20,000 bases of DNA from Chiloscyllium plagiosum (Eukaryota). The translations under genes were made by a program, and so were the position numbers. Below the pieces are notes generated by a model that was not told the origin of the DNA, did not search any database, and saw only the letters and a program-made list of their open reading frames with translations. The stretch spans positions 7,439,893 to 7,459,892 of the forward strand of contig NC_057718.1 of assembly GCF_004010195.1 (NCBI RefSeq), given 5' to 3'. Positions 1 through 16,864 of the stretch are shown here, in pieces; position 1 is the first letter of the stretch, and each line of letters opens with the position of its first letter.

Positions 1-252
1 TCACATAGTGGTAGGGAGACTATTGGAGAAAATTCTGAAGAAGAGAATTAATCTCCAATTGGAGAAGTGAGGTTGATTAGGGATAGTCAGCACACCTTTG
101 CAGAGGGATGCCATGCCTAATAATTTTGGTTGATATTTTTGAGGTCATGACCAGATACACAGTTGAGGGTAGAACAATGGATGCAGTTTATATGTATTTC
201 AACAAGGCCTCCGTCAAAGTTCCATGTGGGAACCTGATAAAGAAGATAAGAG

Positions 253-380
253 GAGAAGGTGGGGACTGCAGATGCTGGAGGTCAGAGTTGAGAGTGTAGC
301 GCTGGAAAAGCACAGCAAGTCAGGCAGCATCCGAGGAGCAGGAGAGTCGATGTTTCGGGCATAAACCCTTCCTCAGGAAT
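253..380 (-). mobile_element. Solo Penelope terminal unit (~128 nt) with hammerhead core
   Basis: Reverse complement aligns by eye over its length with 15494-15622, the 3' end of the RT-coding PLE. Flanked by agaagataagag (241-252) and agaaaataagag (381-392), a 12-bp TSD with 1 mismatch. Confidence 0.85.
346..380 (-). ncRNA. Minimal hammerhead ribozyme motif, slightly decayed
   Basis: Minus strand reads attc-CTGAGGA-A-GGG-tttatg-CCC-GAAA-CA-TC-gac. The CA is probably CpG decay of CG. Confidence 0.65.
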
Positions 381-1093
381 AGAAAATAAGAGTGCATGGG
401 ATGCATTGTAGCTTGGCAAGTTGGACTCAAAATTGAAGACAGAGGATGGTGGTTGAGGGCTGTTTGACTGTTCCTATCATATACCACAGGGATCAGTGCT
501 CGGTCCCTTATTGTTCATGATACACAAAAAATAGTATGGAAGAAAATGTTGAGGAAGATGATAAGTAAGTTTGTCGGTGACGTGAAGATTAGCTGGGTGG
601 AGGTTTTAAATCAGACACAGGTATAGACAGATTGTGCAGATCAGTGACAGAATGGAATTTCACTCTGATAATTGTAAGGTGATGCACTTTGGTACGAGTA
701 ACAAGCAAAGGGAGTACTCAATGAATGGCAGGACACTAGGAAGCTCGGAGGAACAGAAGGATCTTAGGGTGCTTGTCCACAGATCCCTGAAGGTGGTGGG
801 ACAAGTTAACAAAATAGTTAAGGAGGCATATAGGACACTTACCTTTATCAGTTGTGGTATAGATTATAAGATCAGGGGGAGATTATGTGGAGCTGTACAG
901 GACTTTGGTTAGACCACAGCTGGAGCACTGTTTGCAGTTCTGCATTATAGGAAGGATGTGATTGCACTGAACAGGGAATCAAAGGAGATTCATCAGGAGG
1001 TTATCTGGGATGGAGCATTTTAATAATGTAGAGAGGCCATATAAGGTCAGGTTGTTTTCTTTAGAGCAGAGAAGGCTGAGGGTGATTAATGTG

Positions 1094-1221
1094 TAGGAGA
1101 AAGTGAGGGCTGCAGATGCTGGAGATCACAGTTGAGATTGTGGTGCTGGAAAAGCACAGCTGGTCAGGCAGCATCCAAGGTGCAGGAGAATGGACGTTTC
1201 TCGTAAGTCCTTCATCAGGAA
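1094..1221 (-). mobile_element. Solo Penelope terminal unit, second copy, with degenerate hammerhead
   Basis: Homologous to 253-380. TSD tgattaatgtg (1083-1093) / tgattaacgtg (1222-1232). Minus strand reads attc-CTGATGA-AGGacttacga-GAAACGTC, with stem II damaged. Confidence 0.85.
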
Positions 1222-1624
1222 TGATTAACGTGAGAAGAAAGCTTGTCCCTTTAGTTGAAGAGTCATTAACAAGTGGGCAAAATGTTTAGGTGACAGGCAG
1301 GAGGTTTGGTTGGGATTTGAATGTTTTTTTATCCAGAGGGTGATGGGTATCTAGAATGCACTGTCTAGGAGGGACATTGAGGTGGGAAACCTCATAGCCT
1401 TTAAACAATACTTGGATGAGCACTTGAAACATCACAAAATTCAAAGTTATGGGTCTTGTGCAGGAAATGTAGATTTAGAATAGTTTTTGTCAGTGTGGTC
1501 TCAATGGGCCAAAGTGCTTCTTCTGAATGGTATGATTCTGTGATTCTGTAGGTCAGATTGTAAGATAGCCCTAGGTATGAAATTAATAGCATTTGAAATT
1601 CTCACAATACCAATGTGTTAAATA

Positions 1625-1927
1625 TATATATTTTTTCTTTATGAGGTGCCTGTGCAACTGGCTGGGTCAACTGACATTGCTCATTTCTAGTCATATTTGA
1701 CAAGATGGTGGTGAGCTGCCTTCTTGCAGTCCATGCGCTGTAGGTAGACCCACAATGCCGTGAGGGAGAGAATTCCAGGTTCGACCCAATGACCGTCAAG
1801 GAACGGCGATATATTTCCAGGTCAGAATGGTAAGTGGCTTGGAAGGGAACTTGTAGAGGGTAGTCTTCCCATGTGTCTGCTGCCCTTATCCTTCTAGATG
1901 GAAATGGTCACGAATTTGGAAGGTGAT
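1625..1927 (-). mobile_element. 3' end of an L2/CR1-group LINE
   Basis: Reverse complement matches 19529-19694 (aagttccc..ccaagccact.accat.ctga..tggaaatatat.gcc.ttcctt) and includes a WNSLP-type motif (ctggaattctctccct). Confidence 0.7.
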
Positions 1928-1944
1928 TTTTAATATCTCTCAAT

Positions 1945-2062
1945 CAATATCTGGTCATTATCACATTGTTATTTGTGGAACCTTTGTTGGATTACCTTGA
2001 ACATTTCCTGCAAATCAACACTGACCAACCACACTTCATTTTATTTTTTGTAAACCATTTTA
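1945..2062 (+). mobile_element. DeuSINE-like (AmnSINE1/SacSINE1-type) 3' fragment
   Basis: tatctggtcattatcacattgttatttgtggaa...tttcct...acacttcatt resembles the Deu-domain/3' region as recalled; similar to 11335-11490. Confidence 0.5.
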
Positions 2063-2600
2063 ATAAGCAGTACCTTTAAAGACAATATATGTTAGGGTGT
2101 ATAATTCTGAAGGAGTTACATGAGCAGAGGAATCTGGGTGTCCATGTGTATATATCATTGAAGGTGGCAAGATAGGCAGAGGAAGCAGTAAGTAAAGCAT
2201 ACAGTACTCTCAGTTTCATTAATAGCAGCACAGAGTCCAAGAGCAGGGAGATGAAATTGGACATGTAAGAGACACTTGTTAGATTTTAGCTGGAATATTA
2301 TGTAATATTGCGGGCAACACATTATGGAGAGTGTGCAGAAGCTACTTACAAGGATATTTCCAGGAAAGAGAACTTCAGATATCAGGGTCAGTTGAAGAAC
2401 CTTGGATTGCTCTTTTTGTAAAGAAGAAAGCTGAGAAGAGATTTGATGGAGGTTTTCATCATCATGAACAAGCTGGATAGTGTAGATAGGGAGAAACTGT
2501 TCGTAATCTCGGGGCACAGAATTCAAACGACTTGCAAAAGGAGCAAATATGATGTGAGAAACATTTTTTTCTGTCAATGAGTAATGGGTAAGGAATGCAG

Positions 2601-3242
2601 TAGGGTTAAAGTTAGTCACGGTTTGGGTTACGGCTAGAGTTAGGGTGAGGGTTATGGTTAGGATTAGGGCCAGGGTTAGGGTTAGGGTGAGGATTAGAGC
2701 TAGGACAAGGGTTAGGGTGAGAGTTATGGCCAGGGTTAGGGTTAGGGCTCGAGCAAATGTAAAGATTAAGGTTAAGGTCAAGGTTAGGGTTAGGGCTAGG
2801 GCAAGGTTAGGATTAGAGTTACGGCCAGGGTTGGGGTTAGGGCTAGAGCATGGATTAGAATTAGGGTTAAGGTCAAGGTTAGTGTTAGGGCTAAGGCAAA
2901 GGCTAGGTTTAAGGTCAGGGGTTAGGGATAAGGTTAGGGCTAGGATTGAGGTTAGAGTTTGGGTTAAGGTTGGGGTTCGGTTTAGGGTTTGGATCAGGAT
3001 TTGGGCTAAGGTTAGGTTCAGTGTTAGAGTTACAGGTCATGTTAGGATTAGGGTTAGGGTTAGGGCTGCTATAGGGGTTAGGGTTAGGGTTGTGTTTAGG
3101 GTTAGGACCAGGGTTAGGGTTAGGGTTAGGGTTAGAGTTAGGTTTGGATTAGGGTTAGGGTTAGGTTTCACACCAGAGTTAGGGTTTGGGTTAGGGCTCA
3201 GATTGAGTTTAGAGTTAAGACTGGAGTTGGGGTTAGGGTTCG
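2601..3242 (+). repeat. Degenerate interstitial telomeric repeat (TTAGGG)n, ~640 bp
   Basis: About 105 hexamers of TTAGGG and variants (TTAGGA, CTAGGG, TTAAGG, TTTGGG, TTAGAG, CCAGGG); pure runs e.g. ~3111-3133. Confidence 0.95.
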
Positions 3243-3426
3243 GCACTGCCTGGGAAATGTGGTGAGTGCAAGTTCAATTAAAGTGTTCACCAGGACATTG
3301 AATGGATAGTTTGAATAGAAATAACATACACCGGTTGGGGTGAAGGTAGGAGATAATGTGACTTTAGTTAATGATGCTCATTTAAAGAACCGATGTACAC
3401 ATGATGGGCTGAATGGCCTCTATGTA

Positions 3427-3750
3427 TAGATTAGATTAGATTACTTACAGTGTGGAAACAGGCCCTTCGGCCCAACAAGTCCACACCGACCCGCCGAAGC
3501 ACACCCACCCAGACCCATTCCCCTACATTTACCCCTTCACCTAACACTATGGGCAAATTAGCATGGCCAATTCACCTAACCTGCACATTTTTTGAACTTT
3601 GGGAGGAAACCGGAGCACCCGGAGGAAACCCACACAGACACGGGAAGAATGTGTAAACTCCACACAGAGAGTTGCCTGAGGCGGGAATTGAACCCGGGTC
3701 TCTGGCGCTGTGAGGCAGCAGTGCTAACCACTGTGCCGCTGTGCCGCCCA
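3427..3750 (-). mobile_element. tRNA-derived V-SINE (HE1-like shark SINE)
   Basis: Minus strand starts gggcggcacagcggcacagtggttagcactgctgcc (A-box region), has B box gggttcaattccc, the V-domain gtgggtttcctccgggtgctccggtttcctccca, a CR1-like tail ttgggccgaagggcctgtttccacactgta and a (tctaa)n end. Confidence 0.9.
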
Positions 3751-4679
3751 TATACTGCGACATGTCTGTGATTCTGGATGTGCTAATGACATAAATGATG
3801 ATGATTCAAAATTTCCTTTTTTCAATAAATTCCTCTCACAACTTTTCTGAAAACGAAGCTGCCTCTGAGAGTGGGACTCAGATTTGACAGGGGAAGTTTA
3901 CACCACGTAATTGCCAAAAGAAATCACAATCTCTTCCAGCTGCTGTGACATCAGTGTAGTGGTCAAGTGTCAGCCTGAGCTGTTTGAACTGTCACATCCC
4001 TTGCAATGATCAAATGTATTTACCCACACAGCAAGTGGCTGCACTTGGGAATCCACTTCATCACAATTACTATGACACCAGATCAAAATATTGACAGTAC
4101 ACCTGGTGAGCGTGTCACTTCCATATTTTGCAATAACAGCAGTGCACTTCTCATGGTGTACACAGACAGTATATTCTGTTAAAAATGCTTGCAGGTTATC
4201 TTCCAGTGTTCCCGACTGACACTTTCTTCCAATGCCCCTTGCGTATGCATTTTTTTCAATGTGAATAGAAAGTGTTGAAAATCTACAGTGAAGACAGCAA
4301 GGGCAAGAAATGCACAGCATGTTTTTTCTTAAATATTTGGTCAGACACAATGTTGGACAATGTCCTGCAACTGCTGTGCGGTTTACCTTTAAAAGAATTT
4401 GAGTTATCATCTCTCCATCATGGCATGCGGTCAAATGGTGTAAAGCTTTCAGTCTCCATCTTGCTGAGCTCTGTTCTCTTGCAACATGACACTGTAAGGG
4501 AAGCTTGCTACACTACCCTCTGAGTTGCTTTGCTTGAGCCCAGTCACACAAGTGCCTCTGGTTGTACATACCACATAAATACCAGAGATTTCATAAAAGT
4601 TCATTGAATTCTTCAGTTCTACATGACCCCATGTCTTAACCTTTACATTACAGGAGCTAATATAGGTATCACATCTTGG

Positions 4680-5040
4680 TAGTTGCCTATCATCAAAACA
4701 TCATGGCTGATCATGCAATCTCAGTATCCCATTCCCGCTTTCTCTCCATACCCCTTGATCCCTTTAGCCATGAGGGCCACATCCAACTTCCTCTTGAATG
4801 TATCTAACGACCTGGCCCCAACAGCTTCCTGTGGGAGAGAATTCCACAGGTTCACCATTCTCTGAGTGAAGACATTCTTCCTCATCTCAGTCCTGAATGG
4901 CCTACCCCTTATTCTTAGACTGTGACCCGTAGTTCTGGACTTCCCCAACATGAGGAACATTCTTCTTGGATCTAGCCTGTCCAATCCCATTGGGATTTTA
5001 TAGGTTTAGGCGAGGTCCCCCCACATTCTTCTAAATTCCA
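4680..5040 (-). mobile_element. CR1 LINE 3' end
   Basis: ORF 4721-4990 encodes SRTTGHSLRIRGRPFRTEMRKNVFTQRMVNLWNSLPQEAV, the typical CR1 ORF2 C-terminus. Confidence 0.9.
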
Positions 5041-5384
5041 TGGTGGATGCAGCAGTGACTGCTCATAAGAGAATTCTCGTGGAAGATTAGGCAGCCCCTG
5101 CTCGTAAAACATTCAGCAACCAGTTGCAAAAGGTGTATAAGAGGTCATATCTCCAACTTAATTATCCAGGAGGCAGATTTGCTTCCTCCCTCCTTAAAGT
5201 TCAAGAACTATCAAGTTAAAGGTTATCTTCTGTTTTACAAAAACTGAAAAAAGAAAACTTCATCTCACTTCCCATTTTACAGGAAACTCTGAACGTAGGG
5301 TAAGGGGTGAAGGAAGAGATGTAGGACTGCAAGACCTTCCTTCCTGGTCTCTCTTTCTGAGGAAGGATGCTTTTGCTCTTGAGG

Positions 5385-5882
5385 GAGCATAGTGAAGGTT
5401 TTCCAGGCTGATTCCGGGGATGGTGAGACTGACCTATGAGGAGAGATTGACCAGGGTAGGATTGTTTTCATTGGAGTTCAGACGAGTGAGGTGGTGGGGG
5501 TGGATCTCATAGGACCCATAAAATTCTAACAGGGCGGGACAAGGTAAATGCAAGGAGGATGTTTCCAATGGTGGGTGCATCAAAATGTGCATCATTACAT
5601 TCTGAGGGTTTGGAGTGGACCATTGAGGACAGAGATGAGGAGATATCTCCAAAGAGTGGGGTGCCTGTGAAATTCATTACCACAGGAAGTAGTTGATGCC
5701 AAAACATTGAATGTATTCGAGAGGCGGCTAGATATAGCACTTGGGGGTGAAAGGGATCAAAGTTTCTGGGGAGAAAGCAGGATTAGGCTATTGAGTTGGA
5801 CGATCAGCCATGGTTGTAATGAATGGCGGAGCAGACTCGAAGGGCTGAATGGTCTCCTCCTGCTCCTATCTTCTATGTTTCA
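5385..5882 (+). mobile_element. CR1 LINE 3' end
   Basis: aggctgattccggggatg...tatgaggagagattg...tattcgagaggcggctagatatagc; tail gagcagactcgaagggctgaatggtctcctcctgctcctatcttctatgtttc. Confidence 0.85.
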
Positions 5883-5884
5883 AG

Positions 5885-6365
5885 GAGGTGAGTCAGACAT
5901 GGCTGAAGACTCTGTCTATCACAGTGAGGGGGTTTCTCAATCGAGGATCAGATTGATATTGGAGGTAGTCTGGTGGATGAAGGCATCATCAGAACAGATG
6001 CAAAGGAGAGGGAGACACTGGGAAACTGGAATGGAACAAACATAGGAACTGTCGGAGAAATTCAGCAGGTCTGGCAGCATCTGTGGAGAGGGAGAGAGAG
6101 ACACACTTAATGTTTGTAGTCTGACAGGACTCTTCTTCAGAACTAGAATGGTATCTTTGCAGGAAGCAGGGAGTGAGGAGGCGCAGTTAAGGAAACTGTG
6201 AAAATGGCTTGGCTACTCATGGACATTGGTAGCCTATCCTCAGAAAGGGAAACAGTGATGCCAAGGAAGGGAAGCCAATAGTCAGAGCTTGACCAGGTGA
6301 AGGTGAGAGAACGATGGTATTTAGAAGCAAAACTGATTAATTTTTCCAATTCTAGATGAAAGTGT
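5885..6365 (-). pseudogene. Decayed Penelope-like RT fragment
   Basis: EKLISFASKYHRSLTFTWSSSDYWLPFLGITVSLSEDRL aligns with EQLINFTNTFHPDLKFTWTISDTSLPFLDLSISINDDRL of the 14178 ORF. After the insertion it continues as IPVSQCLPLLCICS (cf. IPYPQFLRLRRINS). Confidence 0.8.
6035..6144 (-). mobile_element. Solo PLE terminal unit of a third family with decayed hammerhead
   Basis: Minus strand reads agtt-CTGAAGA-A-GAGTC-ctgtca-GACTA-CAAA-CA-TT-aa...ctctccacagatgctgccagacctgctgaattt. Flanked by aactggaatgg (6024-6034) / aactagaatgg (6141-6151). Confidence 0.65.
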
Positions 6366-6574
6366 CATGCAGACCTCCTTTCTGGTGTTCTCCAGAGATA
6401 TAAACACCACAGTAATGTTCCTTTTCTTCACGAACCTCTCCAGATGGATATTTGATCACCAGATCGGTACGACATGTCAAAACTCCAAAATATGATAGCA
6501 AAGCTTGAATTATTTACCTTGTTAACTTACTGCTCAGTGAAGAGCTCAGTCACAGCAACGGCATCGGTGGCAGT

Positions 6575-7195
6575 GAGTATGCCCAGCACTATGGGCTCTA
6601 GTGGGCCCAGTAGTATGGACTTGAGTAGACCCAGCAGCACAGACTCAAGTAGGCTCAGCAGCATGGACTCGAGTGGACCCAGCAGCAAATACTTGAGTGA
6701 GCCCGGCAGTATAGACTCAAGTAGACCCAGCAGTGTAGATTCAAGTAGGCCCAGCTGTATGGACCAGAGTAGGCCCAGCAGCAAATACTTGTGTAGGCCC
6801 AGCAGTTTAGTCTCAAGTAGGACCAGCAACATGGACCCTAGTGGGCCCAGCAGCACGTACTCAAGTGGGCTCAGCAGTAGACACTCAAATAGGCCCAGCA
6901 GTATAGACTCAAGTAGGTCCAGCAGCATGGACTCGAGTGGGCACAGCAGCAAATACTTGAGTGGGCCCAGCAGTATGGACCAGAGAAGGCTCAGCAGTAT
7001 GGACTCAAGTAGGCCCAACAGCACATACTCAAGTGGGCCCAACCGCACATACTCAAGTGGGCCCAGCAGTAGAGAGTCAAAAAGGCCCAGCAGTAGACTC
7101 AAGTAGGCCCAGCAGCATGGACCCAAGTAGGCCTAGCAGCATGGACTCGAGTTGGCCAAGCAGCATGGACTCGAGTAGGCCCAGCAGCATGGATA
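6575..7195. repeat. 24-bp minisatellite (consensus ~AAGTAGGCCCAGCAGCATGGACTC), about 25 copies
   Basis: Direct tandem periodicity. Translates as (SSRPSSMD)n on + and (LLGPLESM)n on -. Confidence 0.92.
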
Positions 7196-8689
7196 CGTGG
7201 CGGTGGCATCAGAAGTGGGTTTGGGCCCAGTATAACACCCTGTGGCATCATCAGTGGCTGCAGAAGGCAAGGTGGGCCTGAAGCACACTCTTGGCAGTGG
7301 CAGAGTCGAGTTTGGGCCATTTCAAAACTCAGCAGCATCAGTGGTGTCTGCATTGGTGAGGTCCAGTGAGGACTCAGTGGGGGGGGGGGGAGGTGTCAGT
7401 GGAGATGATATGGCACTGACGGGTGACACCTTTCATTCCAGTGACAGTGACATCGCAAAGGGGACTCCTGGCTGGTCACCAGGTCCATGGCCTAGTGATG
7501 GAGCACTTAACAAGAAAGCTCCAAGAGTTGTTGACCAGGTAAAGGGTGCGGAGTGTATCCCCTCCTTTATAACATCCCTCTTCATTACAAGTGACACTTG
7601 TATTTCATTCCAGCTTTGGTCTACTACACCTGAATGAAATGGTGTTAAGCAGATCAGTCATAAAAATAAGTTAATTTCAAAGTTTTCTTGAATGGAAGAG
7701 AGAGGGATTTAAATTCTTATTACTTTCCAAAAATATTAAAACAACACCAAACACCTGCAAGCAAACCCAGGCAATAAGCTTACAAAGAAGTGGGGTGCCT
7801 ATTACAGACAGGAAGTTAAAAGCAATTGTAGTTTGCATTTCTAAAGAGTCCCTAAGGGTTTAGATTATAAATTAGTATCCTAACTGTATAACAGTTATTT
7901 TGCTTCTTCATCAATGATAAATATAGGTTTAATCTACAACCTTCTTGTGGAGGCACCCGTAGATAGCAGAGTTCATAATATAATTGAATTTCACATTCAA
8001 TTTGAGGGAGAGATGTTTGGGTCCAAGACTAGTATTTTAAAATTAAATAAGGGCAATTATGGAGGCATGAATACAAAGCTGGCTAATGTGAATTAACAAT
8101 TTGGTTAAAGGATAAGTTAATAGAGATACCTGTGGGAGACATTGAAGGGGATACTTCAGACTACAAAGAATAGAAACATTCAAATGGATAATAATTATTC
8201 CTAGATGAAGTTACAGCCTTTGGTTAGCTAGAAATATTTCAAACTTAAAGCAACAGCATACAATTGTGCAAAGGTAGATGGCCGAAGATTGATTAGTATA
8301 CAAAGAAAAAGACTGAAAATTAATGAGGGAAAAATTAGAGTATGTGAGAAAGTTAGTCAGAAATATAAGAATAGATAATAAGAGTTTCTATGCTTACTGA
8401 AAAGAAAAGGCAAACTGGACATTGACCCTATGGAAAGTGAGACTTCAGAACTGATCGTGCAAAATAAAAGGAGGCAAATAAAAGGAAGCATATTCTTCAT
8501 TTTTGATAATGGAGGATGCAAGTAACATCCCAAAAGTAGTGATTCATTCAGAAATGGAAGGAAGGGAGAAACAGAAGAAAAATAGATTCAGAGAAGTGGC
8601 CAAGCAGAGGCTGATAGCCAAGTTTGGTACCCAGAGGGATGGCTTCAGTTGGGACCTTGGGTTCATGTCACACTACAGGTGACCCCACT

Positions 8690-8930
8690 ACACTATACAC
8701 TCTCTCTCTCTCTCTCTCACAGTCACACACAAACACACATACACGCACACACCGACAGACCCGACAGAGATCATACACAAGATCTCTCTCATACACTCAC
8801 ACATATACACCCACACATGCACCCTCTCGCAGACTTATACTCCTTTACACTCACACTCACACGTATACATAGACACTCATACCCCTCCCCCCCCCTCCCC
8901 CACACACACACACACACATATGTGTATGTT
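8690..8930 (+). repeat. (CT)n/(CA)n-rich compound microsatellite inside the PLE 3' region
   Basis: tctctctctctctctctc followed by degenerate (ca)n tracts. Confidence 0.9.
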
Positions 8931-9302
8931 TGTGGGGTGAATTTGTATTTGCAGAATTATATTTTATTTTGCTCAAAAACTGCATGAATCCATGTAAGAA
9001 AATGTAAATCCCTTTTTTAGAAATAGAATCAGTTTGAACATTGGGGCACAGACAGCCTCACACAGGGCACCTCACACCTTCAATGCATTATCTAAGCCAA
9101 CATGGCACCTATTGTTAAAGTTCACTTGAGAATGTTACTTTAAAACAAATTTCTGGGATTTACATATGAAAGAACTGAAACCACCATGGTCATTCTAAAA
9201 GATGAGAGACTTAACAAACAATCCAGGTCTTTTTCAATACATTGCATCACGCTGTAAACTTTTGCTATAAATTCTGCATCTTACAATCTTATGCTCCACA
9301 AC

Positions 9303-9337
9303 CACCTGATGAAGGAGCAGCGCCCCGAAAGCTAGTG
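9303..9337 (+). ncRNA. Minimal type I hammerhead ribozyme motif
   Basis: CAC-CTGATGA-A-GGAGC-agc-GCCCC-GAAA-GC-TA-GTG: stem I CAC/GTG, stem II with one mismatch, palindromic AGCT in place of stem III. Confidence 0.75.
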
Positions 9338-9379
9338 CCTCCAAATAAACTGGCTCCTCTACATCAGAGAAGTGGGACT

Positions 9380-9624
9380 GCAACTTTTTCACACAGAGGG
9401 TGGTACGTGTATGGAATGAGCTGCCAGAGGATGTGGTGGAGGCTGGTACAATTGCAACATTTAAGAGGCATTTGGATGGGTATATGAATAGGAAGGGTTT
9501 GGAGGTATATGGACCGGGTGCTGGCAGGTGGGACTAGTTTGGGTTGGGATATCTGGTCAGCATGGAGGGGTTGGACCGATGGGTCTGTTTCCATGCTGTA
9601 CATCTCTATGACTCTATGACTCTA
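9380..9624 (+). mobile_element. Younger CR1 3' tail insertion
   Basis: FFTQRVVRVWNELPEDVVEAGTIATFKRHLDGYMNRKG reading, with a (ctatgact)n tail. Confidence 0.9.
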
Positions 9625-10511
9625 AGTGCAGACTATAGATGCTTGGTTCCTGGTGGACTTCACCCTGGGGTCTTAAAAGACTCAACTAGTGAGATTGTCA
9701 ATAAATTAGTTTTAAATTTCCAAAATTCCCTTGAATGACTTCTTTAGATTGGAAGACTATGAATGCAACTTCTTTATTCAAAAGGCAGAGTTTGACAGGA
9801 AACAGGTAAGTATAGGTTAGTTATGTTGACATCTGTTATAAGGAAAATGTTAGAAGCTATTGACAAAGAAGTTGTAGAAAAGTTTTAAACCTTAGATAAG
9901 TTCAAGGTAATCAGACAAGGTAAATATGGTTTTATAAAAGGGAAATAATGCTTAACCAACTAATGAAGTACTTGAGGGAACAGCATGTGCTGTGGATAAA
10001 GGAGCACAGGTAGATGTACTGTACTTAAGAGTTTCAAAAGGCATATGATGAATTGCCACATCAAAGATTATTGTGGAAAGTAAACGTTTATGGGGTAGAG
10101 AGTAGCACATTTACATGGATAGAAAATTGGCTGGCAAGCAGGAAACAAAGAATAGGCATAAATGAATGCTTTTCAGGATGGCAAAATTAATGATTAGTGT
10201 GCCTCAAGACTCAGTAATTATACCTCAAATATCTACAAATTAAATAAATGATTTGAATAAAGTGATGGAAGAGGGCACAAAGATAGGTGAGAAAGTGAAT
10301 TGTGGAGAGGACAGAAGGAGCCTACGAAGGGATAAAGACAGGTTAAGTGAATGGACAAAGATTTGGTAAATGGAATATAATGTGTAAAAATGTGAAATTG
10401 CCCACTTTGGCAGGAGGTATTTAAAAAAACAGTCAAAACAATGAGAGATTGCAGAGCTTTAAGAGTACAGAGGGATCTGGGTGTTTTGTTGCAAGAATCA
10501 CAGAGTGTAAG

Positions 10512-10736
10512 TGAAATAACTCCAGAGAGGCCAGTATCTGTCATCAAGGCACCCACATGAACAGTCCTTGACTTTAGTACTGCCTCTTTAGAGTCAGCTA
10601 CCAGGGTGTCAGCATCTCAGACATTCACCTTTTTATCTGTCAGCCAGGGCTCCCTGATTGGACTAGCATAACAGCCTCAATCAAGGAACCCATGTTTCTA
10701 TGAGTCCAGCTGGCTGACCATTTTTCAATCCTGACA
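10512..10736 (-). mobile_element. Solo LTR (225 bp), probably Gypsy-type
   Basis: TG...CA termini; flanks gtaag (10507-10511) / gttag (10737-10741). Minus strand has CCAAT then TATA-like gataaaaagg. Removing it restores continuous CR1 sequence. Confidence 0.7.
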
Positions 10737-11334
10737 GTTAGTATGCAGGTACAGCAAGTAATTGGGAAATTTAATGGCATGTTACTGTTTAATTTGAGGG
10801 GTATTGGGTTCAAAAGAAAAGAGGTAGTGCTTCAGTTGTACTAGATGCTGGTGAGATCACATCTGGAGTGCTGTGTTTAGTGTTGATCACTTGATTTAAG
10901 ATGTGAGTACGCTGGAAGCAGTTCAGGGAAGGTTTATCAGACTGATATCAAGGATCGGAGAGTTATCAGAGCAGGTGAAGATGGACAGGCTCTGTATCTG
11001 CTTGTATCCACTGGATTTTGGAAGAGTATGAGGTGATTTGCTTAAAACATAATATCCAGAGACCCCTCAAAAAGGAGGATGTGGAAAGGGTCTCTGGTGG
11101 GAGATATTAGAGTTGGGAGTCACTGCTTAAAAATAAAACTGAGATGAGGAAGACTGTTTTCTCACAGAGTCCTCGAAAGGGAAGCAGAGTTTTTGACTAT
11201 TTTTAGAGCAGAGGTGAATAGATTCTTGGTTAGCAAGGGCTGAAAGGTCATCAGGGCTAGGTGGAAATGTGATGTAATCTGATCAGCTAAGAGCTTATTG
11301 AATGACATAGTCATCTTGAGGGAGCTTACTATTT

Positions 11335-11490
11335 TCAATGTTTGAATGCTTGCTGTGGGAGCTTACTGTGCACAAATTATTTGCTCATTTCCTGAAATTG
11401 CAACAAAAAAAACTTCACCTCAAAAACTACTATGAAGCACTTTGAGTATCGTCAAGGTTACAAAAGGTAACAGAAATCCTTTCCTTTTAA
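11335..11490 (+). mobile_element. DeuSINE-like 3' fragment
   Basis: tgtgggagcttactgtgcacaaatt...tttcctgaaattgcaaca...aagcactttgag resembles the AmnSINE1/SacSINE1 3' region as recalled. Confidence 0.55.
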
Positions 11491-12450
11491 ACGATCAAGT
11501 GCATAACTGGTCACTATCCACTTCTTGGAAAGATTCATAATTGCTTTAACAACAGAAGATTTTTGAAGCAAAGAATTATTTTTTGCACGATTCACAATTG
11601 CGACCTTAAATATTTCCAGCACTGTTTGCTTGTAGCTGTTGAAGTATTTCTTAGCCCTATCTTGCAAAGTGGCTGTCACCTCTCTCAGACATTGTCTGTA
11701 TTTCCCTAGCTGTGCATATTTCTCCAACTGTTACTGTCTCACTGTCTTTGAACCTCTCCCTTTTCCTGTAACCATGCGAGTTCCTTACTGTGTGTTTGTT
11801 GGTCTGTACCAGTCTCTCTTGAGAATATCCATTTCAACACCTGTTGTGAGCTGTCATATTTCACAGTTTCACTCACTATCTGCTTTTGCAGTCTCATATT
11901 TCTCCTCCCAAGTGTCTCTGCCGCCTCCTCAAACACACACACATAACACACACAGTCTAAATTTGTAGAGCTCCATTCAGTTTAATTTGCTGACTTCACT
12001 GACCCCAAGTGAATACTCTAATATTTTTTATGTACAGTCCCATGATCAGTAAGCTCCTCATTTAATATAACCTTCTCATAAATGATCCCACGTCATATGC
12101 CATTGGTGCAAATGTTTGGGTGGATGTGCGTTGGTGAAAAGCGAAAAACATTCACATGCTGCATTTACTTTTCCCTCTTGGTCCAGCCTTTCTTCCCTCA
12201 TCTAAATTCTCAAGTTACATCTCTGACAAAACAATCAACTGGTCCCGACAGAAAATATGATGTTTAGTCTCAAAATGCTTTCTGCTGCTGGTTCTATTCT
12301 AGCGGTCACATCCGACGTCAGTTCCACTGACAGCATTTTTTATCCAGAAGGTTCGGCTGAAAATAATTGGGAGGATGAGGTGCAGAGGGGAATGTTGTAA
12401 TGTTCCATAGAGAAAGGACAGAAATAGCAAGGCTGCCTATCTGCCTCCTG

Positions 12451-12670
12451 ATTTGGAGATGCCAGTGTTGGACTGGGGTGTACAAAGCTAAAAATCACAC
12501 AACACCAGGTTATAGTCCAACAGGTTTAATTGGAAGCACACTAGCTTTCGGAGCGACGCTCCTTCATCAATTGTGTCCTCCACAATCACCTGATGAAGGA
12601 GCACCGAAAGCTAGTGTGCTTCCAATTAAACCTGCTGGACTATAACCTGGTGTTGTGTGATTTTTAGCTT
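12451..12670. mobile_element. Head-to-head inverted pair of PLE terminal repeats, each with a hammerhead core
   Basis: Arms ~12484-12575 and 12581-12671 are reverse complements. TSD tatctgcctcctg (12438-12450) / tatcagcctcctg (12671-12683). Same family as 9290-9350. Confidence 0.88.
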
Positions 12671-12689
12671 TATCAGCCTCCTGGCTTTT

Positions 12690-12990
12690 CCAACTCGATC
12701 CAGCCACATCTCCAAAACTTGCAATTTTTCACCCACCTCATATGCCTCCATCTCTACTCTCTTCCAATTCAGACTTCTGGGATGGTTCCTATTTTGGTCA
12801 AATCACCTAAACTCTGGGATTCCCTCCCAATAAAACTTTCCATCTCTTTACTTCTCTACTAGACACTTCTTAAGACCTGCCACTTTGACAATGCTTTTCT
12901 AACCATGTCAGATTTGGCTTCACAACTTTTCAGCACAGTGCGTTGTTTTACTATTTTAAAGCAGTTATATAACACAAGTTCTTGTTGTTT
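12690..12990 (+). mobile_element. L2-type LINE 3' end, decayed
   Basis: aaactctgggattccctccc (LWNSLP-like), cttcttaagacctgccactttgacaatgctttt, tail aaagcagttatataacacaagttcttgttgtt. Confidence 0.6.
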
Positions 12991-13154
12991 CCTCTTGTCC
13001 CAGCTGTTAGCACTCTTGCCTCAGAACAAGATGGATTTGAATTCCAAAGTAGGAACTGCAGGTGAAAGAGAGGAACAGATCTTTGAGCCTTATCCATTCT
13101 TCAGTTAGATCATGGCCTCTCTGCATCTGAACGTCTTCAGCGCATTTTGGTTCC

Positions 13155-13392
13155 ACACTATTGCCAGATATCGATCAGGCTCAAGACTAGACAATCTAAG
13201 CCCCACTCCTTTAGATTCAATGATTGTGCCATCACTGAATCCCCTACTATCACCATTCACGGGGTTACTACTGACCAGGAACTGCACTGGTCCAGCCAGA
13301 CAGATACTGTACCTTCAAGGACAGGACAGAAGTCAGGAATCCTGCAGTGAGTAACTTACCTCCTGACACCCCAAAGCTTGTTCACCATCTAC
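13155..13392 (+). mobile_element. LINE RT C-terminal fragment (L2/CR1 group)
   Basis: ORF 13147-13350 encodes FNDCAITESPTITIHGVTTDQELHWSSQTDTVPSRTGQKSGILQ (cf. LGV.ID..L.W..HI). Confidence 0.7.
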
Positions 13393-13396
13393 AACA

Positions 13397-13645
13397 TTTT
13401 CCCCTCATGGGGGCATTTATGACCAGAAGGCACGGTCTCAGAATAAAGGGCTGCCAATTTAAGACTGAGATGAGGAGGAATTTCTTCTGTCAGAGGGTTG
13501 AGAGACTTTGGAACTCTTTGCCGCAGAGAGCTGTGGGGACAGAGCCCTTGTGTATATTTAAGGCTGAGGTAGATTGATTCTTGATCTGTCGGGGAATGCA
13601 AGATAATTGGGAAAAGGCAGGAAAGTGGACGTGAGGGATGTCAGA
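13397..13645 (+). mobile_element. CR1 LINE 3' end
   Basis: TRRHGLRIKGCQFKTEMRRNFFCQRVERLWNSLPQRAV. Confidence 0.9.
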
Positions 13646-14018
13646 ACTGATCCGCCTCTTTGGGAAGCTTTCCCTTAATCCTTAGCCCTTCCCCATCAGA
13701 GGAAGTCATTGATCTGTCCTATCGAATCTTTTGCTGATCTTAAAAACCTGAGTTCACGGAGATTGAGTGCTTGTTGATAGCAGTGGAGACATTCCAAACA
13801 GGAAGTTACATTTGTGCTGCCTCAGATGTTCAATTCCGCCCAACAGAGAGACAACTATCCATGTCTCTGCTGACAGACTGTAATATGTATTAATTTCCCA
13901 CTTGTATATGAATGAAGCTGTGGAGTTTCTCCTCTGTTTCTGCAACCACTTATATTTGCACTATTGTATATAACACAGGACTTTGTCAGTACATCTCGCA
14001 CTAGGATAAACTATTCTC

Positions 14019-14863
14019 TCAGCATGCTCCTGCCCCACTGAACTCATCTCTACCTACCTCGACACCCTCCTATCCCCCCTAGTCCAGGAACTCCCCACAT
14101 ACATTCGAGACACCACCCACACCCTCCACCTTCTCCAAGACTTCCGTTTCCCCGGCCCCCAATGCCTCATCTTCACCATGGATATCCAATCCCTCTCCAC
14201 CTCTATCCGCCATGACCAGGGCCTCCAAGCCCTCCGTTTTATCCTCTCCCGACGTTCCCAACAGTACCCTTCCACAAACACTCTCGTTTGTTTGGCCAAA
14301 CTGGTCCTCACCCTTAACAATTTCTCCTTCGAATCCTCCCACTTCCTCCAGACCAAAGGGGTAGCCATGGGCACATGTATGGGCCCCAGCTATGCCTGTC
14401 TCTTTGTTGGCTACGTAGAGCAGTTGATCTTCCGTAATTACACCGGCGTCACTCCCCACCTCTTCCTCCGCTACATTGATGACTGCATTGGTGCCACGTT
14501 GTGCTCCCGCGAGGAGGTTGAGCAACTCATCAACTTCACCAACACATTCCACCCTGACCTTAAATTTACCTGGACCATCTCTGACACCTCCCTCCCCTTC
14601 CTGGACCTTTCCATCTCCATTAATGACGACCGACTTGACACTGACATTTCCTACAAACCCACCGACTCCCACAGCTACCTGGATTACACCTCTTCCCACC
14701 CTACCTCTTGCAAAAATGCCATCCCGTATCCCCAATTCCTCCGCCTCCGCCGTATCAACTCCCAGGAGGAGCGGTTCCACCATAAAACACACCAGATGGC
14801 CTCCTTCTTTACAGACCGCAATTTCCCTTCCCACGTGGTTAAAGATGCCCCCCAACGCATCTC
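14019..14863 (+). CDS. Penelope-like reverse transcriptase, partial; open frame runs into the gap
   Basis: Stop-free from SACSCPTELISTYLD through TMDIQSL, QTKGVAMGTCMGPSYACLF, RYIDD, LKFT, LPFLD, YKPTDSHSYLDYTSSHP, all PLE RT motifs. Confidence 0.9.
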
Positions 14864-15445
14864 NNNNNNNNNNNNNNNNNNNNNNNNNNNNNNNNNNNNN
14901 NNNNNNNNNNNNNNNNNNNNNNNNNNNNNNNNNNNNNNNNNNNNNNNNNNNNNNNNNNNNNNNNNNNNNNNNNNNNNNNNNNNNNNNNNNNNNNNNNNNN
15001 NNNNNNNNNNNNNNNNNNNNNNNNNNNNNNNNNNNNNNNNNNNNNNNNNNNNNNNNNNNNNNNNNNNNNNNNNNNNNNNNNNNNNNNNNNNNNNNNNNNN
15101 NNNNNNNNNNNNNNNNNNNNNNNNNNNNNNNNNNNNNNNNNNNNNNNNNNNNNNNNNNNNNNNNNNNNNNNNNNNNNNNNNNNNNNNNNNNNNNNNNNNN
15201 NNNNNNNNNNNNNNNNNNNNNNNNNNNNNNNNNNNNNNNNNNNNNNNNNNNNNNNNNNNNNNNNNNNNNNNNNNNNNNNNNNNNNNNNNNNNNNNNNNNN
15301 NNNNNNNNNNNNNNNNNNNNNNNNNNNNNNNNNNNNNNNNNNNNNNNNNNNNNNNNNNNNNNNNNNNNNNNNNNNNNNNNNNNNNNNNNNNNNNNNNNNN
15401 NNNNNNNNNNNNNNNNNNNNNNNNNNNNNNNNNNNNNNNNNNNNN
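14864..15445. other. Assembly gap (582 N)
   Basis: Run of n. Confidence 1.
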
Positions 15446-15493
15446 CCCACCCTCCTCTAGCTTATCTCTCCACGCTTCAGACTCTCTGCCTTT

Positions 15494-15528
15494 ATTCCTG
15501 ATGAAGGGCTTTTCCCGAAACGTCGATT
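15494..15528 (+). ncRNA. Minimal type I hammerhead ribozyme motif in the PLE terminal repeat
   Basis: attc-CTGATGA-A-GGG-ctttt-CCC-GAAA-CG-TC-gatt: intact core, palindromic ACGT, predicted GUC cleavage after 15524. Confidence 0.78.
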
Positions 15529-15699
15529 TTACTGCTCCTTAGATGCTGCCTGAACTGCTGTGCTCTTGCAGCACCACTAATCCAAATTCAGGTTTCCAGC
15601 ATCTGCAGTCATTGTTTTTACCTAAACTATTCCACCCTGTCTTCACGGTGTCCTACAGCTGACTGCAAATGTCACTGTTACTTTGGAATGTACCTACCT

Positions 15700-15897
15700 C
15701 TCCACTTAAAGGAGAAGGTAAGGTTTCCATAGACCAAGCAGACCTGAGGGTCATCATGTGTTAGGCAAGGAATGAGGTTGAGATGGCAGGGTCTTCATGG
15801 TAACCATAACCTTCCAGGCCATATGGGAATGGAACCCACCCTGTTGATTTCACTGTGCATCACAAACCTGAAGTCCAGCCAACTGAGCTAACCAACT
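15700..15897 (-). mobile_element. tRNA-derived SINE, decayed
   Basis: Minus strand begins agttggttagctcagttggctgga (A box) and has gggttccattccc (B-box-like). Confidence 0.65.
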
Positions 15898-15944
15898 CGC
15901 AACATCCAAGGCCATGAGCAGTCACATTCTTTTTTAAAGACTTC

Positions 15945-16408
15945 TTTTAATACGCTCAGAGGACGAGGGCATCTCTGGCCAAGCCAACATTCATTGTCCA
16001 TCCCTAATTGCCCAAGAAGCAGTTGAGAATCACCCACATTGCTGTGGGTCTAAAGTAGGCCAGACCCCCTGGTGAGGATGGCAGATTTCCTCGCCTAAAG
16101 ACCTTTAGTGAACCAGATGGGTATTTTTGGCCCCCCTGACGATCAACAATAGCTTCATAGTTATTGTCAGATTTCTTATTCCAGACTTTCATTAAATGCA
16201 AACCTCACAATTTGCCATGGTGGGATTCGAACTGAAGTCCCCAGAACATTACCTGGGTGTATGGATGAATAGGTTAGATCAGAGTGGTGCTGGAAATGCA
16301 GAGCAGGTCAGGCAGCATCGGAGAAGCAGGAAAATCGGCTTTTCAGGCAAAAGCCCTTCATCATGAATTAATACTCTAGCGATAAGGCCACTAGGTCATC
16401 ACCTCCCC
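15945..16408 (-). mobile_element. SINE with LINE-derived tail, interrupted by a PLE solo unit
   Basis: Minus strand starts gggaggtgatgacctagtgg, has B box agttcgaatccc, and a tail gggcaattagggatggacaatgaatgttggcttggccagagatgccc resembling the LINE tail at 1625-1700. Confidence 0.7.
16272..16368 (-). mobile_element. Solo PLE terminal unit with inactivated hammerhead
   Basis: Homologous to 1140-1222 and 15494-15585. Minus strand reads attc-ATGATGA-AGGGcttttgCCT-GAAAAGCC-gattt. Confidence 0.8.
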
Positions 16409-16864
16409 GGATCAGACAGTAGACCATACAACCTAGTCCAGCTTTCACATTGTCAAGGGGACAACTTGATAAACTTTATCACTTCCAACAACAACTTGAA
16501 TTTGAATAACACCTTCATGGTGATAAATATCCCCAAGGCACTTCACCGAAGCACTACATTCTCAATCAGTGAAATTGAAGTTGGGAGTAAAATGGAAGGA
16601 AAGCAAAATCTCTTCTGTGAATGGGCACGTGAATTGTAGTGTTACCATGGCTACTGAAGTGAACGCATGCAGTAGATTTATGAGGCGTTTATGCAGCAGA
16701 CGGAATCCAGTGAGAAAACTACAGTGACATTTGTCAGGTTGGGGTCAGTCAGGAAGGGATGATTAAATCAGGCTTGCCAGCATTACCCATATTCTAAGGA
16801 TAATAATCTGCTCTTTGGATATGGTAGTTTAGCAACTGTTTCAATTTAATTTTAAATGTTAAAA

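What the first reader, a model, noticed from the sequence alone, without database searches (positions are those of the whole stretch)
253..16368. Family of ~100-130-nt solo ribozyme units with a fixed 5' boundary and their own TSDs
Seen: four separate insertions (253-380, 1094-1221, 6035-6144, 16272-16368) all start 3-4 nt upstream of the CUGANGA core. The first two match the last ~128 nt of the RT-coding PLE and carry 11-12-bp TSDs. Random 5' truncation would not give the same boundary repeatedly, and the boundary is not the predicted cleavage site. Inference: a non-autonomous, promoterless, retrozyme-like class mobilised by the PLE RT, or a programmed end-point of reverse transcription at the ribozyme structure. 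I cannot tell whether it is already catalogued in sharks.
Basis: partly seen in the sequence, partly recalled or inferred. Interest (0 to 1): 0.8.

Follow-up and report, generated by a model that had tools for sequence, protein, structure and literature searches.

The report
Short Penelope-element copies starting at hammerhead
These are very short retrocopies of the tail end of a shark Penelope-like retrotransposon that nearly always begin at the first base of its small hammerhead ribozyme, which points to a defined RNA start or stop in a poorly understood copying mechanism.

Summary
Units at 253-380, 1094-1221 and 16272-16368 (minus strand) match the last ~117 nt of the Penelope-like element (PLE) ending at 15622. 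The unit at 6035-6144 belongs to a related family. Three of the four have 11-12 bp target-site duplications (TSDs).

Genome-wide, 5' ends pile up at the first base of hammerhead helix I, 4 nt before CUGANGA:
- DNA-contig depth on a long natural copy rises 4.1-fold exactly there.
- In one recently active subfamily (13,615 exact-match arms), about 70% end within 11 nt upstream. Solo copies peak sharply at -4.

The units are not a separate lineage. Long copies are interspersed with them in a tree. They also carry known PLE hallmarks: two alternative 3' ends about 35 nt apart (the "tail"), head-to-head pairs sharing one TSD, and 10-15 bp TSDs.

Best reading (about 0.45): the cDNA runs from an internal RT start site to the 5' end of an RNA that starts at the hammerhead's first base, from the promoter in the PLE terminal repeat.

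Rivals: an RT or second-strand end-point at the ribozyme edge, or a self-transcribed SINE-like unit.

They are not retrozymes by definition. The scan noted head-to-head PLE 3' modules before, in a rotifer.

The parts
253..380 (-). Solo unit u1: hammerhead plus 3' stem-loop domain plus tail. 5' end at -4 (ATTC before CUGAGGA). Flanked by a 12-bp TSD at 241-252 and 381-392.
1094..1221 (-). Solo unit u2, with tail. 5' end at -3/-4. 11-bp TSD at 1083-1093 and 1222-1232. Like u1, it is inserted in a LINE-like RT remnant.
6035..6140 (-). Solo unit u3 of a related but different hammerhead-bearing family (family 3). 5' end at 0 to -2. 11-bp TSD at 6024-6034 and 6141-6151.
16272..16368 (-). Unit u4, lacking the terminal ~26-35 nt. 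It stops near the first of the two 3' end classes. 5' end at -4, core mutated (AUGAUGA). No convincing TSD.
14010..15622 (+). 5'-truncated PLE copy. RT frame at 14010-14864, masked N at 14865-15446, then 3' UTR. The terminal unit is 15494-15622.
15494..15525 (+). Minimal hammerhead of the PLE copy: helix I 5' strand ATTC, CUGAUGA at 15498, bulged A, 4-bp helix II, GAAA, palindromic ACGU. Predicted cut after GUC at 15525.
   Evidence: No Rfam match.
12451..12670 (.). Head-to-head pair of units of a second PLE family. The left arm carries the ~35-nt tail and the right arm lacks it. One 13-bp TSD (12 of 13) at 12438-12450 and 12671-12683.
9294..9355 (+). Hammerhead region of a longer copy of the second PLE family. 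It extends upstream of the ribozyme.

Best explanation
The units are by-products of Penelope-like element (PLE) retrotransposition. They are not a separate element.

The parent is a canonical RT plus GIY-YIG PLE. In its 3' UTR it carries a module made of a minimal, dimer-type hammerhead followed by about 95 nt of stem-loops.

Shown or strongly supported:
- The PLE machinery nicks both target strands 10-15 bp apart.
- It starts cDNA synthesis inside the RNA at one of two sites about 35 nt apart. One lies in a hairpin loop, giving a tail-less copy. The other lies after the tail.
- It often does this on both strands, giving head-to-head pairs with one tail-less and one tailed arm.

Inferred:
- That RNA starts there because the promoter known to lie in the PLE terminal repeat fires at a pyrimidine-A step immediately before the ribozyme.
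- Any transcript that starts there carries the RT-binding module within its first ~130 nt, whether it comes from the upstream repeat of a tandem element or from a solitary copy that keeps ~40 nt of upstream sequence. An RT that initiates at this 5'-proximal module therefore runs off after only 95-130 nt.
- The short cDNA is then joined to the other target end, or to a second cDNA, often through TTC/GAA microhomology.
For: PLE identity:
- RT frame in the window.
- The nearest named proteins (87-90% identity) are from bamboo shark. More distant relatives carry RVT_1 plus a C-terminal GIY-YIG domain.
- A natural unmasked copy aligns to that endonuclease region at E 2e-49. Its stop codon lies ~210 nt before the hammerhead.

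Two 3' ends:
- Of 23,675 arms, about 41% stop at ..TTTCAAC(T) and about 59% continue 35 nt further.
- 22 of 25 close head-to-head pairs have one arm of each kind. So do 7 of 7 pairs in my loci.
- This matches the in-vitro behaviour of an Anolis PLE, which cuts and extends both strands and has two internal RT start sites that define the tail. In that system shorter RNA 5' ends give shorter products (PMC11167929, main text read).

Sharp 5' end:
- In the subfamily with 13,615 exact arms, 30 of 47 solo-like arms begin at -4/-3 (classified by eye).
- The -4 base is A in 24 of 31 such arms. The -5 base matches the element in only 5 of 23, which is chance level.
- DNA-contig depth steps 4.1-fold at the boundary.

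Start-site reading:
- Long copies read pyrimidine-C-A|TTCC at the boundary. A conserved T/A-rich block lies 26-32 nt upstream. The fit to Inr and TATA consensus is from recall.
- The subfamily with CA has the sharp boundary. The one with TA has a fuzzier one.
- A second family has a cluster at an A after CC, 8 nt upstream of its ribozyme.
- Published work places PLE promoters and start sites in the terminal repeat (PMC6765202 and PMC2377424, passages read).

Weak RNA hints:
- In two runs guessed to be RNA, the depth step is 13- and 22-fold, against 4-fold in DNA.
- In one of those runs, loose ends beyond the 3' end (43) outnumber those before the 5' boundary (7), a ratio of 0.16. The DNA ratio is 39 to 66, or 0.59. 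For the second run (66 beyond the 3' end) the cut listing shows none before the boundary.
Against: - No direct RNA 5'-end data. The only raw-read RNA run laid nothing. The two 'RNA?' runs are contigs of guessed type, and their contigs run from units into unrelated sequence on both sides, as expected for passive co-transcription or DNA.
- The Inr/TATA reading rests on recalled consensus motifs and was not tested.
- The position relative to the ribozyme is kept in three families whose upstream sequences differ. That fits a structure-defined end-point as well as a conserved start site.
- In head-to-head pairs the second arm usually begins inside the ribozyme (+2 to +25) rather than at -4. Identical junctions recur many times. 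So joining chemistry (TTC/GAA microhomology, template switching) contributes to where ends fall.
- In Drosophila virilis Penelope the mapped start site is separated from the ribozyme by 46 nt plus an intron (PMC2377424, PMC4209133). That is not immediately before it.
- The pair count on 22 copies gives no covariation support for the proposed RNA fold.
Confidence: 0.45

Rival explanations
1. The boundary is an end-point of DNA synthesis, not of the RNA. Either the RT (or the priming of the second strand) preferentially stops or switches template as it leaves the protein-bound, structured module. Or the cDNA end made at -3/-4 (..GAA) is captured by TTC microhomology. On this view long RNAs also give short copies.
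For: - The same position relative to the ribozyme recurs in three families with different upstream sequence.
- Many junctions show TTC/GAA overlap. One junction type recurs 8 times in 100 rows.
- Stutters and small inverted pieces occur at 5' junctions.
- Second arms start inside the ribozyme.
- The PLE RT is telomerase-like, and telomerase has a template boundary set by RNA structure (established knowledge, recalled).
Against: - An RT blocked by structure should stop before the ribozyme (at its 3' side), not after copying all of it.
- In vitro the Anolis enzyme runs to the RNA 5' end (PMC11167929).
- The single-nucleotide sharpness, with templated A at -4 and chance-level identity at -5, is unusual for fall-off.
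Confidence: 0.3
2. The units are a self-propagating SINE-like element. An internal promoter inside the unit drives transcription from its first base. The PLE RT then copies it from the internal start sites, so solo units breed solo units.
For: - D. virilis Penelope has an internal, TATA-less promoter downstream of its start site (PMC2377424, passages read).
- Copy numbers are very high: 9,983 exact 39-mers of one subfamily.
- Both ends are sharply defined.
- The unit is over-represented in the putative RNA contigs.
Against: - Short units do not form their own clade. A long copy is sister to the tight cluster of short ones, and other long copies are scattered through the tree (small sample, short alignment).
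- About 30-50% of arms in each subfamily still extend upstream.
- No tRNA-like or other pol III head.
Confidence: 0.12
3. Retrozyme-type cycle. Tandem copies are transcribed, cut by the hammerhead and circularised. The circles are reverse-transcribed, and the units are monomer offspring.
For: - One same-strand pair of long-type copies lies 224 nt apart on contig C1.
- There is a small spike of arms that begin exactly at the predicted cleavage product: 12 of 100 rows at +28, against 7 over +24..+27.
- Vertebrate non-LTR retrozymes are reported to derive from PLE terminal repeats (bioRxiv 10.64898/2026.07.22.740005; part 1 of 5 and matched passages read).
Against: - Cut-and-ligate monomers would begin at +28, not at -4.
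- Ends at +28 are a few hundred genome-wide at most, against thousands at -4.
- The window units are dispersed singles, not tandem.
- The ribozyme is the minimal dimer type with reported low activity (PMC4209133).
Confidence: 0.05
4. Artefact. The apparent boundary is only the edge of the conserved block (ribozyme conserved, upstream diverged), or chance.
For: The first census used a diverged reference.
Against: - TSDs abut the boundary.
- The census repeated with five natural long references gives the same result.
- Exact-match samples show unrelated sequence directly upstream of -4.
- The reversed-pattern controls gave 0 matches.
Confidence: 0.01

Closest known systems
5'-truncated insertions of canonical (RT plus C-terminal GIY-YIG) Penelope-like elements with minimal hammerheads (Cervera & de la Pena 2014, PMC4209133; Craig et al. 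2021, PMC8557442)
   Same: - A minimal type-I hammerhead with a palindromic ACGU in place of helix III sits in the terminal region.
- Most motifs are single and 'probably related to truncated PLEs'.
- Inverted 5'-truncated partners occur.
- A 30-40 bp tail is present at one end only.
   Different: The texts I read describe truncation as high and variable. None mentions a preferred 5' end at the first base of helix I. Here that end dominates tens of thousands of copies.
Poseidon element of Anolis carolinensis studied in vitro (Frangieh et al. 2024, PMC11167929)
   Same: - Both strands are cut and extended.
- Reverse transcription starts internally at two nearby sites in a stem-loop, and the tail is the stretch between them.
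- The minimal template is the ~150 nt just after the ribozyme start.
   Different: - In Anolis the ORF begins inside the ribozyme. Here the ribozyme lies ~210 nt after the stop codon.
- The paper does not report where genomic 5' ends fall. I did not read its supplement.
Non-LTR retrozymes and their 'solo' monomers (Cervera & de la Pena 2020, PMC7229834; Li, Clavereau & Pollet 2026 preprint)
   Same: Short, non-coding, hammerhead-bearing repeats related to PLE terminal repeats, probably moved by PLE proteins.
   Different: - Retrozymes are defined by tandem repeats with a hammerhead in each unit and by circular RNAs. Their ribozymes are mostly canonical.
- These units are dispersed singles or inverted pairs, with TSDs and a minimal ribozyme.
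Schistosome SINE-like hammerhead retroposons (Sm-alpha / Sj-alpha). Known to me from the figure legend and reference list in PMC6765202 and from recall.
   Same: A short interspersed retroposon consisting of a promoter region and a hammerhead.
   Different: - They carry a pol III-type head and a canonical, active ribozyme.
- No tRNA-like head is found here, and the 3' end is the PLE RT start module.
HDV-like ribozymes at the 5' end of R2 and L1Tc elements (PMC6765202, passages)
   Same: A small ribozyme sits at the very 5' end of the retrotransposed RNA.
   Different: HDV-like ribozymes cut at their own 5' edge and so create that end. A hammerhead cuts on its 3' side, so here the 5' end must be made by something else.

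Membership tests
Penelope-like element (canonical EN+), 3'-terminal module | Parent element encodes a PLE-type RT followed by a C-terminal GIY-YIG endonuclease | tested here: met
   - Window 14010-14864 hits RVT_1 weakly (22.7 bits, below the cut-off).
- The closest proteins, 87-90% identical, carry RVT_1. More distant relatives (about 50-54% identical) also have a C-terminal GIY-YIG domain.
- Natural copy L003:737-1315 aligns to that endonuclease region at E 2e-49.
- The endonuclease part of the window's own copy is masked.
Penelope-like element (canonical EN+), 3'-terminal module | Optional 30-40 bp tail at one end; two alternative 3' ends | tested here: met
   About 41% of 23,675 arms stop at ..TTTCAAC(T). 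The rest continue ~35 nt. 22 of 25 close pairs have one arm of each kind.
Penelope-like element (canonical EN+), 3'-terminal module | Adjacent inverted 5'-truncated copy (head-to-head) within one TSD | tested here: met
   (for example, 13-15 bp perfect TSDs around five pairs). In some searches, 30 of 100 and 73 of 100 rows are inverted junctions.
Penelope-like element (canonical EN+), 3'-terminal module | Partial tandem arrangement forming pseudo-LTRs | tested here: inconclusive
   None of about 28 fetched young copies is followed by another copy. One same-strand pair 224 nt apart appears. Full-length copies are masked.
Minimal hammerhead of PLEs (descriptor of Cervera & de la Pena 2014) | CUGANGA and GAAA boxes, extra base before helix II, G10.1-C11.1, palindromic 15.2-16.2, helix I of 4-5 bp | tested here: met
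   - Read directly.
- Pair counts on 22 copies: helix II 92% paired; helix I 69% paired, with a common U.U mismatch that is absent in one subfamily.
- No covariation support.
Hammerhead ribozyme families of Rfam | Match to a curated covariance model | tested here: not met
   no match in the window at E up to 1. This is expected for motifs without helix III.
Hammerhead ribozyme (function) | Self-cleavage after H17 | not testable with these tools
   Only a hint. 12 of 100 sampled arms begin exactly at the predicted 3' product (+28), against 7 over the four positions before it (classified by eye).
Non-LTR retrozyme | Tandem repeats with a complete hammerhead in consecutive units | tested here: not met
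   The four units are single, TSD-flanked or isolated. Tandem Repeats Finder reports no array at them.
Non-LTR retrozyme | Unit-length linear and circular RNAs | not testable with these tools
   Only contigs of guessed RNA type were available. The raw RNA run laid no reads.
SINE | Pol III head derived from tRNA, 7SL or 5S | tested here: not met
   ARAGORN finds no tRNA-like sequence in the window. The unit starts directly with the ribozyme. 7SL and 5S similarity was covered only by the Rfam scan, which found nothing.

The most novel reading that the evidence does not exclude
In these shark PLEs transcription starts exactly at the first base of the hammerhead. The ribozyme would then be the 5'-terminal structure of every element RNA.

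On this reading the tens of thousands of 95-130-nt units are 'run-off' retrocopies, made when the RT initiates at the promoter-proximal copy of its binding module.

The genome would then hold a nucleotide-resolution fossil record of three otherwise unmeasured steps of PLE biology:
- the transcription start;
- the two internal RT start sites;
- through the small spike of copies beginning at +28, hammerhead cleavage in vivo.
Probability: 0.35. Interest if true: 0.65.

Novelty: new member of a known kind. Interest (0 to 1): 0.5.

Why it matters
The role of the hammerhead in Penelope-like elements, and the way these elements are transcribed and copied, are still open. The only biochemical study so far used one lizard element.

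Here one genome offers more than 60,000 exact-match insertion arms whose two ends are sharply defined. The 3' ends reproduce, in vivo and in a distant vertebrate, the two internal RT start sites and the two-strand priming seen in vitro. The 5' ends reveal a preferred end at the ribozyme's first base that I did not find described.

If that end is the RNA start, it fixes the element's promoter architecture and places the ribozyme at the RNA 5' terminus. If it is an RT end-point, it would be a template boundary in a telomerase-related RT. Either answer can be tested with standard 5'-end mapping or with the published in-vitro assay.

For annotation, these units should be filed as PLE fragments, not as a new SINE or retrozyme.

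Tried and rejected
- Rfam scan of the whole window at E up to 1 found nothing.
- RNAalifold on 22 copies did not recover the ribozyme fold. My own structure is compatible with the copies (83% of cells paired, against 23-36% when slid) but has no covariation support.
- Single-sequence folds were not better than shuffles (z from 0.0 to -1.7).
- Pfam did not detect GIY-YIG in the natural copy's frame. Similarity to a relative with that domain did.
The random-stretch census therefore rests on the 200 kb fetched, plus 30 loci of about 3 kb and the window.
- RNA evidence: no listed holder is on record as RNA. The raw single-cell RNA run laid 0 reads, which is no test.
- I considered and dropped a splice acceptor at the boundary, because there is no AG there.
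- I considered and dropped a hammerhead cut at -5/-4, because no enzyme arm can pair there.
- Earlier notes of this scan held nothing on this genome.
- Lunse et al. 2017 is not held. I did not read the supplements of PMC11167929 or PMC4209133, and the preprint's supplements are closed. Any of these might already describe 5' end positions.
- Literature searches that found no description of a preferred 5' end at the ribozyme edge.

Full report
**What is there**

The window comes from a 3.56-Gb genome. The nearest named proteins for the element studied here are from the bamboo shark Chiloscyllium punctatum (87-90% identity) and the zebra shark.

At 14010-15622 (+) lies a 5'-truncated Penelope-like element (PLE):
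- It has a reverse-transcriptase frame.
- A masked stretch follows at 14865-15446.
- A 3' UTR ends at 15622.
- The closest relatives carry RVT_1. More distant relatives also carry a C-terminal GIY-YIG domain.
- An unmasked natural copy elsewhere (L003) aligns to that endonuclease region at E 2e-49. Its stop codon is ~210 nt before the ribozyme.

The last 129 nt of the element (15494-15622) hold a minimal hammerhead. Its parts are a 4-nt helix I strand, CUGAUGA, a bulged A, a 4-bp helix II, GAAA, and a palindromic ACGU in place of helix III. The predicted cut is after GUC at 15525. About 95 nt that can form a long-range stem around two hairpins follow. Rfam models do not match, as expected for this dimer-type motif described in PLEs (PMC4209133; parts 1-2 of 4 read).

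**The observation**

- The units at 253-380, 1094-1221 and 16272-16368 lie on the minus strand. They match 15494-15610 at 79-84%.
- The unit at 6035-6144 shares only a 34-nt core. It belongs to a related family.
- The units begin 4, 3-4, 4 and 0-2 nt before the C of CUGANGA.
- Three have 11-12 bp TSDs with one mismatch each. The fourth (u4) does not.
- The last 13-16 nt of u1 and u2 differ from the window's PLE copy, so they come from a sister subfamily.

**Is the boundary real?**

I fetched 30 loci around copies and 20 arbitrary 10-kb stretches.

Local census:
- I aligned every non-selected arm to five natural long copies (66 arms). I dropped 7 weak arms, 2 next to masked N and 1 duplicate.
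- Of the remaining 56: 19 end at -7..+1, 4 at -8..-12, 5 at -13..-40, 12 run more than 40 nt upstream, and 16 start inside the unit.
- One value (L038 minus arm) I corrected by eye, because the palindrome misled the aligner.
- TSD-like repeats flank 18 of 32 insertions, against 13 of 186 offset controls. So the edges are insertion edges, not conservation edges.

Depth test:
- I laid a DNA run's contigs on a long natural copy at 90% likeness or more.
- Summed depth was 0.60-0.75 M in the three bins before the boundary (0.55-0.95 M over the 400 nt upstream).
- It was 2.61 M and 3.29 M in the two bins after the boundary.
- The step falls exactly between 1525 and 1526, and heterogeneous loose ends sit there.
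- This depth is a sum over contigs, not a copy count.

Genome-wide pattern search gave exact counts and printed the flanks of the first 100 matches. I classified these rows by eye.

For a recently active subfamily (ribozyme start CUGAAGAAGGGCCUGUGC):
- There are 13,615 arms in total: 8,532 with A/T and 5,083 with G/C at -17.
- In one search, 47 rows were long-type, 21 solo-like, 30 inverted junctions and 2 other.
- In one search, 1 row was long-type, 26 solo-like and 73 inverted.
- Weighted, about 30% of arms extend upstream, 23% are solo ends and 47% are joined to an inverted arm.
- Of the 47 solo-like arms, 30 start at -4/-3, 8 at -5..-11 and 9 at -2..0.
- The -4 base is A in 24 of 31. The -5 base agrees with the element in only 5 of 23.

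For the larger set with the window element's ribozyme start:
- There are 51,324 arms.
- About half are long-type.
- The solo ends still peak at -4/-3 but spread from -13 to 0.

A second family shows clusters at -8 and -3/-4.

The boundary is therefore a strong preference shared by several PLE families. It is not a property of one lineage.

**What the units are**

Three further regularities tie them to the known PLE insertion mechanism.

1. Two 3' ends.
- Of 23,675 arms of the subfamily, about 41% stop at ..TTTCAAC(T), in the loop of the second hairpin. About 59% continue ~35 nt to the tail end.

2. Head-to-head pairs inside a single TSD of 10-15 bp are very common.
- The window itself holds one, from the second family, at 12451-12670.

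3. Pairs almost always combine one tail-less and one tailed arm.
- This holds in 7 of 7 pairs in my loci.
- It holds in 22 of 25 close pairs matched between the lists. Two pairs have both arms tailed and one is ambiguous.

These match published work:
- The description of PLE insertions: an inverted truncated partner and a 30-40 bp tail at one end (PMC8557442, passages).
- The in-vitro behaviour of an Anolis PLE: both strands are cut and extended, two internal RT start sites define the tail, the minimal template is the ~150 nt after the ribozyme start, and shorter RNA 5' ends give shorter products (PMC11167929, parts 1-2 read; supplement not read).

In a tree of 85 arms, long copies are scattered among short ones. 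One long copy is sister to the tight cluster of short units of the active subfamily (short alignment, weak resolution). The units are thus products of PLE activity, not a separate element. They also fail the defining features of retrozymes and SINEs.

**How the 5' end arises (inference)**

A hammerhead cuts on its 3' side, so it cannot make an end at its own first base. Ends at the predicted cleavage product exist but are rare:
- 521 arms in the sample pass an anchor that starts at +28.
- Of 100 listed, 12 begin exactly at +28, 7 at +24..+27 and 12 at +19..+22.
- This small spike may record cleavage in vivo.

- PLE promoters and start sites lie in the terminal repeat (PMC6765202 and PMC2377424, passages).
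- The boundary reads pyrimidine-C-A|TTCC in long copies. A conserved T/A-rich block lies 26-32 nt upstream in four diverged subfamilies. The likeness to Inr and TATA elements is from recalled consensus.
- The CA subfamily has the sharp boundary and the TA family the fuzzy one.

A transcript that begins there carries the RT module within its first 130 nt. Initiation at that module gives a cDNA of exactly the observed length, whatever lies downstream.

Weak RNA hints agree:
- In two runs guessed to be RNA, the depth step is 22- and 13-fold, against 4.1-fold in DNA.
- In one of them, contigs that run beyond the 3' end (43) outnumber those that run in from upstream (7). The second has 66 beyond the 3' end and none listed from upstream in the cut table. 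In DNA the numbers are 66 and 39.
- These are contigs of uncertain type, and the loose-end table is cut to its best-supported rows.

**Main rival**

The main rival is a DNA-synthesis end-point: RT exit from the bound module, internal priming of the second strand, or capture of the ..GAA cDNA end by TTC microhomology.
- It is favoured by recurrent identical junctions, by stutters and small inverted pieces at 5' junctions, and by second arms that start inside the ribozyme.
- I cannot separate the two readings by sequence alone.

**Novelty**

Single hammerhead motifs from truncated PLEs, tails, inverted partners and solo retrozyme monomers are all in print. A preferred 5' end at the first base of helix I was not mentioned in the texts I read or found in my searches. 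Lunse et al. 2017 and several supplements could not be seen. I therefore file the units as members of a known kind, with one new and testable regularity.

Noticed in passing
window 2620-3165: A degenerate array of about 91 copies of a 6-nt unit that is a permutation of the vertebrate telomere repeat (65% matches). It is an interstitial telomere-like tract.
   Followed up: no
window 6575-7193: A tandem array with a 24-nt period (about 26 copies) and a 96-nt higher-order period. It is open in several frames, which produces spurious long ORFs.
   Followed up: no
window 14865-15446 and 19028-19527: Two runs of N (1,082 in all). The first hides the linker and endonuclease part of the PLE copy. Similar runs lie next to many other copies in the fetched loci.
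   Followed up: partly
window 1-1500, 5671-6045, 9380-9500, 13275-13577: Remnants of LINE-like reverse-transcriptase elements with a shared C-terminal motif. u1 and u2 are nested in the first one.
   Followed up: no
G000 contig C1, for example 1863533/1863757, 18072195/18072414, 25850415/25850634, 26033247/26033471; tandem at 26522146/26522370: Long-type copies of the active subfamily recur as opposite-strand pairs with the two ribozyme starts 219-224 nt apart. Once they occur as a same-strand pair 224 nt apart. This suggests a second preferred 5' end about 100 nt upstream, or an amplified ~224-nt composite (retrozyme-like).
   Followed up: no
G000, rows: Identical head-to-head junctions recur at many independent places. 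One type occurs 8 times and another 6 times in 100 rows. The second type carries an internal deletion between two CCTG repeats. They may form repeatedly by microhomology, or composite elements may be copied as such.
   Followed up: partly
G000; for example C4:18253496/18253518: A small spike of arms that begin exactly at the predicted hammerhead cleavage product (+28). It includes one head-to-head pair with both arms starting there. This is possible genomic evidence of ribozyme cleavage in vivo.
   Followed up: partly
L040:3983-4117: At one solo tail-less unit, the 5' junction carries 7 nt copied in inverse from the target duplication and 8 nt copied in inverse from the ribozyme start. This is a footprint of template switching at the 5' join.
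   Followed up: partly
(runs X1-X20): The 3' 570 nt of the young PLE family is held at 0.93-0.95 of sampled words in DNA (or unclassified) runs under three coded organism labels. A fourth label appears only in runs guessed to be RNA, at about 0.6. The family is therefore shared by related species or labels.
   Followed up: no
window 16200-16420: u4 sits inside a repeat with a tRNA-like T-arm motif on the minus strand, probably a tRNA-derived SINE. ARAGORN calls no tRNA there.
   Followed up: no
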